Assembly: GCF_030013595.1 (NCBI RefSeq)
Contig: NZ_CP122768.1
Reading direction: 5' to 3' (one strand)
DNA from: Escherichia coli
GTDB taxonomy: Bacteria > Pseudomonadota > Gammaproteobacteria > Enterobacterales > Enterobacteriaceae
DNA length: 64,000 nucleotides
In this document: in pieces, positions 22,601-25,600 of the stretch
How the letters are laid out: every line of letters starts with the position of its first letter
Numbering within the stretch: position 1 is the stretch's first letter
Made by a program: the position numbers

Positions 22601-25600
22601 TTATACCAGGATTACGCGTGGAATTTTGCCGCGTAAATGGCCTGCGAGGACCAACAGCGGCAAATGTTTATCTCTCTTAATATGAGTTGCTTGTTTAAAG
22701 CTGATGGGTTTTATTGGCATAGTTCAATAGTCAACACCATATATTATAACACAAGTTACTTTTTCACCGGGAAACTAATCCATTTAACCGAATATCTCTA
22801 CAACTAATAGTTATAAATGCCACTTAACAGCCAGTTATAGTACCACTTGAAACTATATTGCCAACAATAGTTAATAGCTTTCTTAACAATTTTCTTATCT
22901 TTAATTTGTATTTTGCTAAGATTTATCTTATGCTCACAAGTCGTATTTCCAGAGGGGAATAGTTAACAATCTTATATTTCCCTCTGCGCGCCTTTCCCAC
23001 CCGCAGTATATAGTGCTGGCGGTATGAGGAAAGGGAGATTTCACAAGGATGTTATACTCAAAGTAGATAATCCTGATCTCAAGCGTACGTATTGTCCATG
23101 CGATGAATAAAGGAAAAGTTATGAAACACAAGCTTTCTGCAATCCTTATGGCCTTCATGTTGACGACGCCAGCTGCATTTGCTGCCCCTGAAGCAGCAAA
23201 CGGGACTGAGGCAACGACGGGTACTACTGGCACCACAACGACCACTACAGGTGCAACCACGACTGCTGCTACCACTGGTGGCGTGGCTGCTGGCGCTGTC
23301 GGCACGGCGACGGTTGTCGGTGTGGCAACGGCTGTTGGTGTGGCGACGTTGGCAGTAGTTGCAGCAAATGACAGTGGCGATGGCGGTTCTCATAACACCT
23401 CAACCACCACGTCCACTACGCGCTAATACTGCTTTAACGCGTCAAAATTAAAGTTAAATGATACCCGGTTGCGATATTCGTACCGGGCTTTAGAGATTTG
23501 CATTTTTTTAATTAACCTTTCAAGGATTAAAGGTGCGCCCTCTTATTTTATCGATTTTCGCACTATTTCTTGCGGGATGTACACACAGCCAGCAAAGTAT
23601 GGTCGATACATTTCGCGCCAGCCTTTTCGATAATCAGGATATCACCGTAGCGGATCAGCAGATCCAAGCGTTGCCTTATTCCACGATGTATTTACGCCTT
23701 AATGAAGGGCAACGAATCTTTGTGGTACTGGGATATATAGAACAAGAACAAAGCAAATGGTTATCCCAGGATAACGCCATGCTGGTTACCCATAATGGAC
23801 GTCTTTTAAAGACCGTCAAACTTAATAATAATCTGCTGGAAGTAACAAATTCCGGGCAGGACCCTCTGCGTAACGCGCTGGCAATAAAAGACGGCAGCCG
23901 CTGGACGCGCGATATTCTCTGGAGTGAAGACAACCATTTTCGCTCTGCGACCCTGAGTTCCACTTTTTCCTTTGCTGGATTAGAGACGCTGAATATTGCG
24001 GGTCGCAATGTGCTGTGTAATGTCTGGCAGGAAGAGGTGACTTCCACGCTGCCAGAAAAACAGTGGCAAAACACATTCTGGGTCGATTCGGCTACTGGCC
24101 AGGTTCGTCAAAGTCGGCAAATGTTAGGCGCAGGGGTTATTCCCGTAGAAATGACGTTTCTTAAACCCGCACCATGAATAAATTACAGTCGTATTTCATT
24201 GCCAGCGTACTTTACGTAATGACACCCCATGCCTTTGCGCAAGGAACGGTGACTATTTATCTGCCTGGCGAACAACAGACACTTTCCGTTGGCCCCGTGG
24301 AAAATGTTGTCCAGTTGGTGACACAACCGCAACTGCGCGATCGCCTCTGGTGGCCTGGTGCCTTGCTGACCGACTCTGCGGCGAAAGCTAAAGCGCTTAA
24401 AGACTACCAACATGTCATGGCACAGCTTGCTTCCTGGGAAGCAGAAGCTGACGACGATGTGGTGGCAACGATTAAATCCGTGCGCCAGCAGTTACTCAAT
24501 CTCAATATCACTGGTCGCTTACCGGTCAAACTGGACCCTGATTTTGTACGAGTGGATGAGAACAGCAATCCCCCGTTGGTCGGGGACTATACGCTCTATA
24601 CCGTACAGCGTCCGGTGACTATTACTCTGCTGGGTGCGGTTTCTGGGACAGGGCAATTGCCCTGGCAGGCAGGCCGTAGCGTTACCGATTATCTGCAAGA
24701 TCACCCCCGCCTTGCAGGCGCGGACAAGAATAACGTTATGGTGATTACGCCTGAGGGTGAGACTGTCGTCGCCCCTGTTGCCCTGTGGAATAAAAGACAT
24801 GTGGAACCACCGCCTGGCAGCCAGCTTTGGTTGGGCTTTTCTGCGCATGTACTGCCCGAAAAATATGCTGATTTAAATGACCAGATTGTGTCTGTTTTAA
24901 CGCAACGTGTTCCTGACTGATGAAGAAGAACTCTTATCTTTTAAGCTGCCTGGCCATTGCCGTCTCCAGTGCCTGTCATGCTGAAGTATTAACCTATCCG
25001 GATCCGCTGGGTTCGTCGCAATCAGACTTTGGCGGCACAGGATTGTTGCAGATGCCAAATGCGCGCATCGCACCGGAAGGTGAATTCAGCGTCAACTACC
25101 GGGATAACGATCAATACCGTTTCTACTCCACCTCCGTGGCGCTGTTCCCATGGCTGGAAGGCACCATTCGTTATACGGATGTGCGCACACGCAAATATAG
25201 CCAGTGGGAAGATTTCAGCGGCGATCAGTCATACAAAGACAAATCTTTCGATTTTAAACTTCGCCTGTGGGAAGAAGGTTACTGGCTACCGCAAGTGGCA
25301 TTTGGTAAACGTGATATTGCTGGTACGGGTCTGTTTGACGGTGAGTATCTGGTGGCCAGCAAGCAAGCGGGGCCATTTGATTTCACCCTCGGGATGGTAT
25401 GGGGCTACGCCGGTAATGCGGGCAATATTACCAACCCGTTTTGCCGGGTGAGCGATAAATATTGTCATCGCGCAGAGTCTCACGATGCGGGCGATATCAG
25501 CTTTAGCGATATCTTTCGTGGCCCAGCTTCCATCTTTGGCGGCATTGAGTATCAAACGCCGTGGAATCCCCTGCGTCTGAAACTCGAATACGACGGCAAC

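What the first reader, a model, noticed from the sequence alone, without database searches (positions are those of the whole stretch)
23160..23426. GfcA is dominated by a Thr/Gly/Ala/Val low-complexity tract
After a signal-like N-terminus, GfcA reads ...TTGTTGTTTTTTGATTTAATTGGVAAGAVGTATVVGVATAVGVATLAVVAANDSGDGG...TTTSTTR. Such Thr-rich tracts are candidate O-glycosylation or mucin-like segments and their length is prone to slippage. The codon usage in this tract also produces a spurious 123-aa antisense ORF (22934..23305).
Basis: seen in the sequence. Interest (0 to 1): 0.25.

Follow-up and report, generated by a model that had tools for sequence, protein, structure and literature searches.

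The report
Known Thr-rich capsule protein GfcA
This is gfcA, the already-described threonine-rich first gene of the E. coli group 4 (O-antigen) capsule operon; its threonine tract is real but almost never changes length between strains, so the finding is ordinary.

Summary
Window 23121..23426 (+) is gfcA (ymcD), which PGAP names 'threonine-rich inner membrane protein GfcA'. It is the first gene of gfcABCDE-etp-etk. 72 of its 101 residues are T, A, G or V.

The tract is not one uniform block. It has four parts:
- a Sec-type signal peptide (residues 1-21);
- a Thr/Gly/Ala stretch (22-53), predicted disordered;
- a Gly/Ala/Val core (54-82), only marginally hydrophobic;
- an NDSGDGG motif with a Thr-rich tail (83-101).

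Comparison with 84 loci anchored on gfcB/yjbF shows that the core and tail are the parts conserved across the family. The Thr stretch is an Escherichia-specific insertion.

Length variation exists but is rare. I found 8 of about 3,590 complete E. coli genomes with in-frame variants (+18, +21 or -15 nt), all inside one 30-nt hotspot. The DNA uses mixed codons and is not a simple repeat. The operon is usually lost through IS insertions.

The 123-aa antisense ORF is spurious. The amino-acid composition forces it open whatever codons are used.

Glycosylation cannot be tested here, and Larson et al. 2021 already proposed it.

Verdict: already known, low interest. GfcA's molecular role remains open.

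The parts
23121..23426 (+). gfcA (ymcD) coding sequence, 101 aa plus stop
   Evidence: ORF list. PGAP CDS WP_001299283.1 'threonine-rich inner membrane protein GfcA' in the 100% identical record. AGGA lies 8 nt upstream of this ATG, and all homologues start MK(H/K)K.
23121..23183 (+). Signal peptide, residues 1-21 (MKHKLSAILMAFMLTTPAAFA, then AP)
   Evidence: It has a basic N-region, a hydrophobic core and an A-x-A site. The AFA/AP-type site is conserved in the 69 distinct homologues. AF2 predicts helix 3-13. Cleavage is inferred; no SignalP was available.
23184..23279 (+). Thr/Gly/Ala tract, residues 22-53; a lineage-specific, disordered insertion
   Evidence: About half of the residues here are Thr. 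AF2 predicts coil with pLDDT 33-44. In alignment A3 most family members have only about 4-12 residues at this position. It is the most divergent region between Escherichia species: 7 of 32 aa differ, against 0 of 21, 3 of 29 and 1 of 19 in the other modules.
23226..23255 (+). Indel hotspot inside the Thr tract
   Evidence: An 18-nt and a 21-nt tandem duplication and a 15-nt deletion in rare E. coli alleles all map here, as does the 15-nt deletion in E. albertii. The hotspot overlaps TRF's imperfect 15-nt repeat at 23241-23275.
23280..23366 (+). Family-conserved Gly/Ala/Val core, residues 54-82 (GVAAGAVG...LAVVAA), with an imperfect 18-nt x3 repeat
   Evidence: G54, A56 and G58 are invariant and A57 nearly invariant. 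Maximum Kyte-Doolittle hydropathy over 19 residues is 2.16. AF2 predicts a low-confidence helix at 56-83. TRF reports an 18-nt x3 repeat at 23295-23348.
23367..23423 (+). Conserved acidic motif and Thr-rich C-terminal tail, residues 83-101 (NDSGDGGSHNTSTTTSTTR)
   Evidence: It aligns with the (G)GG[DN]G[SA]NTG-T5-7-S-T-(R/Q) ending of all family members. The T7 run of YjbE orthologues is kept in 65 loci through 38 different codon strings.
22934..23305 (-). 123-aa antisense ORF: spurious
   Evidence: It has no Pfam or NCBIfam match and is not annotated in the identical record. Its frame is open in 100% of synonymous recodings. In 4 of 5 other alleles a Trp codon is replaced by a stop in the part that overlaps the gfcA upstream region.
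23079..23393 (-). 104-aa codon-aligned antisense ORF: spurious
   Evidence: Same tests as above. All natural polymorphisms that are synonymous in gfcA change the amino acid in this frame (0-2 synonymous against 2-6 non-synonymous).
23463..23488 (+). Hairpin in the gfcA-gfcB spacer, followed by a U-rich stretch; role unknown
   Evidence: Fold of 23424-23535 (z = -1.65). The simple scan does not call it a terminator.
23533..24177 (+). gfcB (YjbF-family lipoprotein)
   Evidence: PF11102, E = 2e-69; PGAP annotation.
24174..24920 (+). gfcC
   Evidence: PF20616 and PF06251.
24920..27016 (+). gfcD (YjbH-family outer-membrane protein)
   Evidence: PF06082, E = 1e-269.
27062..28201 (+). gfcE (Wza-like exporter)
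   Evidence: Poly_export, SLBB and Wza_C domains. Start taken from PGAP.
28189..28635 (+). etp (low-molecular-weight tyrosine phosphatase)
   Evidence: PF01451; PGAP coordinates.
28655..30835 (+). etk (Wzc-like tyrosine kinase)
   Evidence: Wzz, GNVR and AAA_31 domains.

Best explanation
The feature is gfcA, the first gene of the group 4 capsule operon.

Shown here:
- It encodes a small pre-protein with a Sec-type signal peptide followed by three low-complexity modules.
- The family-conserved parts are a GxAAG motif with a Gly/Ala/Val core, and a C-terminal G-D-G...poly-Thr tail.

Inferred:
- The tract acts as a disordered, hydrophilic spacer on the periplasmic side of the inner membrane. Its exact length matters little, and its composition and reading frame are under purifying selection.
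- It is not a slippage switch.

Taken from published genetics: GfcA as a whole is needed for capsule assembly.

My inference on mechanism: GfcA most likely works as a stoichiometric accessory partner of GfcB, GfcC and GfcD in the envelope. Where the mature peptide ends up is unresolved. I put about 45% on retention in the inner membrane by the marginally hydrophobic core, and about 45% on release to the periplasm or outer membrane.

The antisense ORFs are compositional by-products.
For: Identity and context:
- The region is 100% identical to a record in which PGAP annotates GfcA.
- The downstream genes carry the YjbF, GfcC, YjbH, Wza, LMWPc and Wzc domains.

Selection on the protein frame:
- 13 polymorphic sites were found among six alleles. 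10 are synonymous third-position changes, 2 are Ala/Thr swaps, and 1 affects the last residue.

Family:
- 84 of 86 gfcB/yjbF-anchored loci from Enterobacterales carry a small signal-peptide plus low-complexity gene just upstream.
- Profile-profile comparison of GfcA-type against YjbE-type gives 97.3% probability, E = 2e-11.
- Alignment A3 shows the conserved core and tail, and shows the Thr tract as an insertion.

Disorder: AF2 gives pLDDT 33-44 across the tract. GfcA was also called natively unstructured in PMC8346858.

Length stability:
- Sampled spans were exactly conserved in 58 of 58, 59 of 59 and 31 of 32 hits.
- Only 8 genomes carry variants, and all are in frame.
- There is no perfect repeat longer than 10 nt.

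Function: an EPEC gfcA deletion lacks the capsule, and gfcA alone on a plasmid restores it. gfcA was the most highly expressed of the surface-structure genes tested (PMC3853201).
Against: - No experiment locates GfcA or defines its partners.
- The spacer role is inferred only from disorder, from variable length between genera and from faster divergence.
- Thr enrichment is maintained: substitutions are mostly Ala/Thr swaps. This hints that the hydroxyl groups matter, which a pure spacer does not explain.
- The signal-peptide call is heuristic.
- AF2 confidence is low throughout, so the model says little beyond 'not a folded domain'.
Confidence: 0.7

Rival explanations
1. The Thr tract, the C-terminal Thr run, or both are O-glycosylation acceptor sites. 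GfcA would be decorated with O-antigen or other sugars, exported by GfcBCD, and would serve as the carrier or anchor of capsule polymer.
For: - GfcA is 28% Thr and is exported.
- The idea is stated in PMC8592465.
- The N-terminal barrel of GfcD belongs to the FapF family (PMC8346858). From my own knowledge, FapF is a polypeptide (amyloid) secretion channel.
- The C-terminal barrel of GfcD has a predicted lateral gate for hydrophobic cargo (PMC11494523).
- The poly-Thr C-terminus is conserved through heavy synonymous turnover.
- A waaL deletion gave a mixed encapsulated and unencapsulated population (PMC3853201).
Against: - No glycosyltransferase or oligosaccharyltransferase gene lies next to gfc or yjb loci in the contexts inspected.
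- E. coli K-12, which keeps yjbE, has no known general O-glycosylation system (my knowledge).
- The N-terminal tract is absent from most family members, so it cannot be the conserved acceptor.
- There is no experimental support.
Confidence: 0.15
2. GfcA is a single-pass inner-membrane protein, as its database name says. Residues about 56-83 would form a transmembrane helix that self-associates or binds Etk through small-residue motifs. The Thr tract would be its periplasmic ectodomain.
For: - Maximum Kyte-Doolittle hydropathy over 19 residues is 2.16.
- AF2 predicts a helix at 56-83.
- SOSUI predicts one transmembrane segment, and YmcD overexpression lowers intracellular D-Ala (PMC10299036).
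- The long hydrophobic core occurs in all 8 loci that have a wza-like gene after gfcD. It is absent from the yjbE-type loci.
Against: - The summed biological-scale insertion energy is about +1 kcal/mol, which is marginal (scale values recalled from memory).
- The C-terminal flank is acidic (NDSGD) and has no Lys or Arg to stop transfer.
- YjbE paralogues have only an 8-residue hydrophobic stretch (+5.2 kcal/mol; hydropathy 0.9-1.4), so a transmembrane helix is not a family feature.
- The helix has pLDDT below 50.
Confidence: 0.4
3. The tract is a contingency locus. Slipped-strand mispairing would change its length often, tuning or switching capsule production.
For: Three independent in-frame indels in E. 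coli and one in E. albertii all fall in one 30-nt hotspot with short direct repeats. TRF finds an imperfect 15-nt repeat there.
Against: - Only 8 of about 3,590 genomes carry a variant. Five of them share one allele, and two of those five are typed O169:H41.
- No frameshifting variants were seen in complete genomes.
- The longest perfect repeat is 10 nt and the codons are mixed.
- Operon inactivation is seen through IS1, IS3 and IS5 events instead.
Confidence: 0.03
4. The 123-aa antisense ORF (22934..23305) encodes a real protein.
For: It is long, and its wobble positions coincide with those of gfcA, so polymorphisms inside the overlap are mostly silent in both frames.
Against: - It is open in 100% of synonymous recodings of GfcA.
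- It is a Val/Ala/Pro homopolymer-like product with no family match.
- It has a GTG start and is not annotated.
- A premature stop occurs in 4 of 5 other alleles, including the majority allele.
Confidence: 0.01

Closest known systems
GfcA / YmcD of E. coli (PGAP name 'threonine-rich inner membrane protein GfcA'; group 4 capsule operon, Peleg et al. 2005)
   Same: The protein is identical to WP_001299283.1, with the same operon and the same flanking genes, cspH and appA. The 30% Thr content is already noted in PMC8592465.
   Different: Nothing differs. This window carries the allele with Ala at residues 26 and 50, as in O157:H7. The K-12-type allele has Thr at both. There is no IS1 upstream here, unlike K-12.
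YjbE (Pfam PF11106), first gene of yjbEFGH
   Same: - Same position, upstream of the YjbF, YjbG and YjbH paralogues.
- Signal peptide, GxAAG motif, and a G-D-G...poly-Thr C-terminus.
- hhalign probability 97.3%.
   Different: - GfcA does not reach the Pfam model at all (no hit at E up to 10), and BLASTP finds no alignment.
- YjbE is Ser-rich rather than Thr-rich in its N-terminal half.
- YjbE lacks the 30-residue Thr insertion.
- YjbE has only a short hydrophobic stretch.
Mucin-like or O-glycosylated Ser/Thr-rich linkers
   Same: High Thr content, predicted disorder, and an extracytoplasmic location.
   Different: There is no Pro, no tandem peptide repeat unit, no linked glycosyltransferase, and no evidence of modification. 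The tract is about 30 residues in an 80-residue mature peptide.
Simple-sequence contingency loci (phase-variable repeats, as in Neisseria and Haemophilus)
   Same: Indels cluster in a repetitive, low-complexity coding stretch.
   Different: The repeats are imperfect and use mixed codons. The variants are rare, always in frame, and lineage-restricted.
Glycine-zipper small envelope proteins (Gly-zipper and Rick_17kDa_Anti families)
   Same: A Gly/Ala/Val segment with regularly spaced Gly. Pantoea relatives show GxxxG-like spacing.
   Different: No Pfam match. Gly spacing in GfcA is 4, 3, 6, 6 rather than a regular GxxxG. GfcA has no lipobox.

Membership tests
GfcA (E. coli group 4 capsule operon, first gene) | Protein sequence identical or nearly identical to annotated GfcA | tested here: met
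   A 100% identical record is annotated WP_001299283.1 GfcA. About 3,600 of 5,426 complete genomes carry it at 95% identity or more.
GfcA (E. coli group 4 capsule operon, first gene) | Located directly upstream of gfcB-gfcC-gfcD-gfcE-etp-etk | tested here: met
   Pfam domains of the six downstream ORFs; PGAP table.
GfcA (E. coli group 4 capsule operon, first gene) | Required for O-antigen capsule formation | not testable with these tools
   Published for EPEC E2348/69: the gfcA deletion lacks capsule and is complemented by gfcA alone (PMC3853201).
YjbE family (Pfam PF11106) | Score at or above the Pfam gathering threshold (27.9 bits) | tested here: not met
   GfcA has no PF11106 hit even at E up to 10. 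K-12 YjbE scores 113.6 bits. The intermediate protein P0032 scores 24 bits.
YjbE family (Pfam PF11106) | Homology detectable by profile-profile comparison | tested here: met
   hhalign of A4 against A5: probability 97.3%, E = 2.2e-11 over 69 columns. Caveat: the signal peptide and biased composition contribute to the score.
YjbE family (Pfam PF11106) | Small signal-peptide gene immediately upstream of a YjbF/GfcB homologue | tested here: met
   Found in 84 of 86 loci. The other two lack upstream sequence.
YjbE family (Pfam PF11106) | C-terminal G-[DN]-G...Thr-run ending in R or Q | tested here: met
   Alignment A3; GfcA ends in SGDGGSHNTSTTTSTTR.
Mucin-like / O-glycosylated Ser-Thr domain | Tandem Ser/Thr/Pro-rich peptide repeats | tested here: not met
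   There is no Pro in residues 24-101. TRF finds only an imperfect 15-nt x2.3 repeat and an 18-nt x3 repeat, the latter in the hydrophobic core.
Mucin-like / O-glycosylated Ser-Thr domain | Dedicated glycosyltransferase encoded with the substrate | tested here: not met
   None among the neighbours in the window, in K-12 yjbEFGH, or in L009 and L012. Enzymes encoded elsewhere are not excluded.
Mucin-like / O-glycosylated Ser-Thr domain | Demonstrated glycan on the protein | not testable with these tools
   Only speculation in the literature (PMC8592465).
Simple-sequence contingency locus | Perfect homopolymer or short tandem repeat of several units | tested here: not met
   The longest perfect tandem repeat is 10 nt. 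The T6 run uses ACC ACA ACG ACC ACT ACA.
Simple-sequence contingency locus | Frequent length polymorphism among isolates, including frameshifts | tested here: not met
   8 of about 3,590 genomes carry a variant, and all are in frame. None were seen in about 148 sampled hits.
Single-pass inner-membrane protein | Hydrophobic segment of at least 19 residues above the usual hydropathy threshold | tested here: met
   Maximum Kyte-Doolittle hydropathy over 19 residues is 2.16. On the biological scale it is marginal, +0.98 kcal/mol.
Single-pass inner-membrane protein | Positively charged cytoplasmic flank (positive-inside rule) | tested here: not met
   The flank is NDSGDGGSH. The only basic residue is the terminal Arg, which is Pro or His in some natural alleles.
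Single-pass inner-membrane protein | Experimental membrane localisation | not testable with these tools
   No localisation data were found in the papers searched.

The most novel reading that the evidence does not exclude
GfcA (and YjbE) is not a membrane accessory but the polypeptide cargo of the GfcBCD module. After Sec export, the unstructured peptide would be chaperoned by the LolA-like GfcB and passed to GfcD. GfcD has a FapF-family N-terminal barrel and a laterally gated C-terminal barrel. The Gly/Ala/Val core would lodge in the outer membrane, and the Thr-rich parts would carry or bind O-antigen polymer. That would make GfcA the long-sought surface anchor of the group 4 capsule.
Probability: 0.12. 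Interest if true: 0.7.

Novelty: already known. Interest (0 to 1): 0.12.

Why it matters
As a finding it adds little. The gene, its threonine richness and the glycosylation idea are all in the literature.

The by-products of this check may help people who work on group 4 capsules:
- The conserved elements of the GfcA/YjbE family are the GxAAG-Gly/Ala/Val core and the G-D-G-poly-Thr C-terminus, not the conspicuous Thr tract.
- The long hydrophobic core is found only where a Wza-like gene follows gfcD.
- Natural 96-, 107- and 108-aa alleles exist and could serve as ready-made length variants for functional tests.

How the capsule polymer is held on the cell, and what GfcA does, remain open questions.

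Tried and rejected
- Pfam and NCBIfam scans of GfcA gave no significant family. The only results were WGxxGxxG at E = 0.005, below its cut-off, and New_glue at E = 1.5. I treat both as compositional noise.
- BLASTP of GfcA against YjbE found no alignment.
- The word-indexed protein search and the full phmmer search over 1.8 billion representatives returned only 31 and 15 hits. Most were frameshifted or chimeric fragments from poor assemblies. Synteny-anchored retrieval worked instead.
- A PDB profile search found nothing meaningful.
- Rfam found nothing in or next to gfcA.
- The promoter and terminator scan found no plus-strand sigma-70 promoter upstream of gfcA and no canonical terminator after it.
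- The polymorphism test cannot separate gfcA from the 123-aa antisense frame inside the overlap, because their wobble positions coincide. I used recoding simulations and the stop codon in the upstream part instead.
- I prepared a fused GfcD-linker-GfcA paired alignment for AF2 but did not run it. About 24 mostly similar sequences are too shallow for a 677-residue double barrel, and the tool returns no coordinates or PAE, so an interface could not be judged.
- Peleg et al. 2005 (PMC1196049) is not held in the library.
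Full report
**What is there**

The window matches E. coli strain 2012C-4502 at 100% over the region. The ORF at 23121..23426 (+) is annotated in that record as WP_001299283.1, 'threonine-rich inner membrane protein GfcA'. The six ORFs downstream carry the expected domains for the group 4 capsule operon gfcABCDE-etp-etk:
- YjbF (GfcB)
- GfcC N- and C-terminal domains
- YjbH (GfcD)
- Poly_export, SLBB and Wza_C (GfcE)
- LMWPc (Etp)
- Wzz, GNVR and AAA_31 (Etk)

The upstream neighbours are cspG and cspH. The downstream neighbour is appA. An ATG at 23103 also opens the frame. However, 23121 has an AGGA 8 nt upstream, is the PGAP start, and matches the MK(H/K)K start of every homologue.

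**Checking the observation**

| Measure | GfcA | 32 neighbouring genes |
|---|---|---|
| Thr | 28 of 101 residues | 5.6% |
| T+A+G+V | 72 of 101 residues | 29% |
| Binomial tail | 1e-12 (Thr), 4e-18 (TAGV) | – |
| Entropy, 61-residue window | 2.33 bits (residues 22-82) | minimum 3.15 bits in 945 windows |

The bias is real. The 123-aa antisense ORF at 22934..23305 (-) exists. So do a 104-aa codon-aligned antisense ORF (23079..23393) and a 59-aa +1-frame ORF.

**Anatomy**

The 'tract' has four modules.
1. Residues 1-21 form a Sec-type signal peptide ending AFA, followed by AP.
2. Residues 22-53 are Thr/Gly/Ala with two Glu. AF2 predicts coil with pLDDT 33-44.
3. Residues 54-82 are Gly/Ala/Val and contain an imperfect hexapeptide repeat. 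TRF reports it as 18 nt x3 at 23295-23348. Maximum Kyte-Doolittle hydropathy over 19 residues is 2.16. AF2 predicts a helix at 56-83, but with pLDDT below 50.
4. Residues 83-101 read NDSGDGGSHNTSTTTSTTR.

The whole AF2 model has mean pLDDT 47.6. That agrees with the published description 'natively unstructured' (PMC8346858).

**The family**

Sequence searches with GfcA are crippled by its composition. I therefore anchored on GfcB/YjbF and scanned one genome per species. In 84 of 86 loci a small gene sits directly upstream, encoding a signal peptide followed by low-complexity sequence. These give 69 distinct proteins of 80-111 aa. The other two loci lack upstream sequence.

Profile-profile comparison of GfcA-type against YjbE-type proteins gives 97.3% probability, E = 2e-11. 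GfcA itself does not reach Pfam PF11106. Alignment A3 shows which parts are conserved:
- the signal peptide;
- a GxAAG motif (G54, A56 and G58 invariant; A57 nearly so);
- the Gly/Ala/Val/Ser segment;
- the ending (G)GG[DN]G[SA]NTG-T5-7-S-T-(R/Q).

The Thr tract of E. coli is an insertion between the cleavage site and GxAAG.

| Group | Residues at the insertion site |
|---|---|
| YjbE-type proteins | about 4 |
| GfcA-like proteins of Cedecea and Enterobacter | 9-12 |
| Mangrovibacter | an unrelated 31-residue insertion |

Between the window and Escherichia sp. MOD1, the tract is the fastest-evolving module: 7 of 32 residues differ. The signal peptide, core and tail differ at 0 of 21, 3 of 29 and 1 of 19.

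The C-terminal Thr run behaves very differently. 65 YjbE-type loci keep exactly seven Thr through 38 different codon strings.

**Is the length labile?**

The DNA is not a simple repeat. The longest perfect tandem repeat is 10 nt. The 28 Thr codons are ACG 12, ACT 7, ACC 7 and ACA 2.

In complete E. coli genomes, gfcA is present in about 3,600 of 5,426, and gfcBC in 3,707. Genomes without gfcA therefore lack the operon rather than carry a divergent allele. Three samples taken at even steps down the rankings gave exactly conserved spans:
- 58 of 58 at 306 nt;
- 59 of 59 at 201 or 198 nt;
- 31 of 32 hits without an IS insertion at 633 nt, and one at 634 nt.

Searching with the shorter E. albertii allele then exposed rare variants.

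| Variant | Protein length | Genomes |
|---|---|---|
| Perfect 18-nt tandem duplication | 107 aa | 5 genomes sharing one identical allele; 2 typed O169:H41, 1 labelled ETEC |
| 21-nt tandem duplication | 108 aa | 1 (RMDEC465) |
| 15-nt deletion between ACCAC repeats | 96 aa | 2 |

All map to window about 23226-23255. All are in frame. E. albertii has a 15-nt deletion at the same place. Only 19 of 3,607 records fall below 95% identity to the window allele. That caps large indels at about 0.5%.

The tract is thus a mild indel hotspot over evolutionary time, not a labile repeat. What does disrupt the locus repeatedly is IS insertion:
- IS1 upstream of gfcA, as in K-12;
- IS5 upstream;
- IS1 at the 3' end of gfcA;
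- IS3 truncating gfcA;
- IS1 inside gfcB;
- IS1-mediated loss of the region from gfcA into etk.

**Coding frame and the antisense ORFs**

Among six alleles, 13 sites vary. 10 are synonymous third-position changes, 2 are Ala/Thr swaps, and 1 changes the last residue.

The 104-aa antisense frame and the +1 frame take these changes as mostly non-synonymous. The 123-aa antisense frame shares wobble positions with gfcA, so it cannot be judged that way. A stop in that frame needs a Tyr, His or Gln codon on the sense strand. GfcA has no Tyr, no Gln and only two His.

In 2000 synonymous recodings, both antisense frames stayed open for at least 185 nt in 100% of cases. In ordinary genes the figures are 54% and 28%. 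In addition:
- the ORF's far end overlaps the gfcA upstream region, where 4 of 5 other alleles carry a stop;
- it has no family match;
- it is not annotated.

It is spurious. The cause is amino-acid composition rather than codon usage.

**What GfcA does**

Shown in the literature:
- An EPEC gfcA deletion lacks the capsule, and gfcA alone on a plasmid restores it. gfcA was the most highly expressed of the surface-structure genes tested (PMC3853201).
- The first four gfc genes are described as being of unknown function (PMC8592465, PMC11494523).

Inferred here: the conserved synteny with YjbF, YjbG and YjbH homologues makes GfcA a partner of GfcBCD.

Its location is unresolved.

For a transmembrane helix:
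- the hydropathy of the core and the AF2 helix;
- one transmembrane segment predicted by SOSUI, and lower intracellular D-Ala on YmcD overexpression (PMC10299036);
- the long core occurring in all 8 loci where a wza-like gene follows gfcD, and being absent from the yjbE-type loci.

Against it:
- a marginal insertion energy of about +1 kcal/mol (scale values from memory);
- an acidic C-terminal flank with no Lys or Arg;
- YjbE having only about 8 hydrophobic residues (+5.2 kcal/mol).

I read the Thr tract as a disordered hydrophilic spacer under weak length constraint. I leave roughly equal odds on inner-membrane retention and on delivery to the periplasm or outer membrane.

**Glycosylation**

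This cannot be tested with sequence tools. [quoted passage not shown]

Two published predictions keep that reading alive. The N-terminal barrel of GfcD belongs to the FapF family, and its C-terminal barrel has a predicted lateral gate. Against it, no glycosyltransferase is linked to the locus in any context inspected, and the N-terminal tract is missing from most relatives.

**Verdict**

The feature is an already-described gene with an already-noted composition. Interest is low.

Noticed in passing
window 22900-23120, and related loci L001, L004, L005, L006, L093, L096, L097: The 5' end of the gfc operon is a recurrent IS target in other strains. I saw IS1 upstream of gfcA (K-12 type), IS5 upstream, IS1 at the gfcA 3' end, IS3 truncating gfcA, IS1 inside gfcB, and an IS1-mediated deletion running from gfcA into etk. 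The window itself carries no IS here, so its operon looks intact.
   Followed up: partly
window 23463-23488: A GC-rich hairpin (ACCCGGUUGCGAUAUUCGUACCGGGC) followed by a U-rich stretch lies in the 106-nt gfcA-gfcB spacer. It is not a canonical terminator by the scan, and its fold z-score is only -1.65. It could attenuate read-through, which would fit the report that gfcA is very highly expressed.
   Followed up: partly
L009, L010, L013-L017 and the window, compared with L018-L092: The long Gly/Ala/Val hydrophobic core (Kyte-Doolittle hydropathy of at least 2.0 over 19 residues) is present in all 8 loci where a wza-like gene follows gfcD. YjbE-type proteins in yjbEFGH-only loci score 0.9-1.4. 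Pantoea and Erwinia proteins are intermediate at 1.8-2.1.
   Followed up: partly
L040, L057, L070 (Mangrovibacter), about 4558-4893: Their YjbE-like proteins (111 aa) carry an unrelated 31-residue Gly/Ser/Ala/Gln/Pro insertion at exactly the site where E. coli GfcA carries its Thr tract. The junction after the signal peptide seems to tolerate low-complexity insertions.
   Followed up: no
window 23121-23426 compared with 23533-24920: Against most E. coli genomes, gfcA of this window is 97.1% identical while gfcBC is about 99.1% identical. gfcA is therefore about three times more diverged, almost entirely at synonymous sites.
   Followed up: partly
window 21916-22338 (-), 41158-41242 (+), 41737-41935 (-), 11156-11234 (+): Rfam matches elsewhere in the window: the cspA-type thermoregulator (the cspG leader), a tRNA (tRNA-Ser in PGAP), the IS009 sRNA, and naRNA4.
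   Followed up: no
E. coli genome searches: Five matches to gfcA lie on plasmids, and a few genomes (for example strains D1 and CAVP773) hold two copies. I did not inspect these.
   Followed up: no
P0008-P0012, P0014, P0017, P0019, P0029, P0030: Public protein collections hold many frameshifted or chimeric 'GfcA' entries from draft or metagenome assemblies. Several share the same out-of-frame C-terminus (...LLVWRRWQLLQQMTVAMAVLITPQPPRPLH...). They are probably sequencing or assembly errors in this GC-rich, low-complexity stretch rather than real variants.
   Followed up: no
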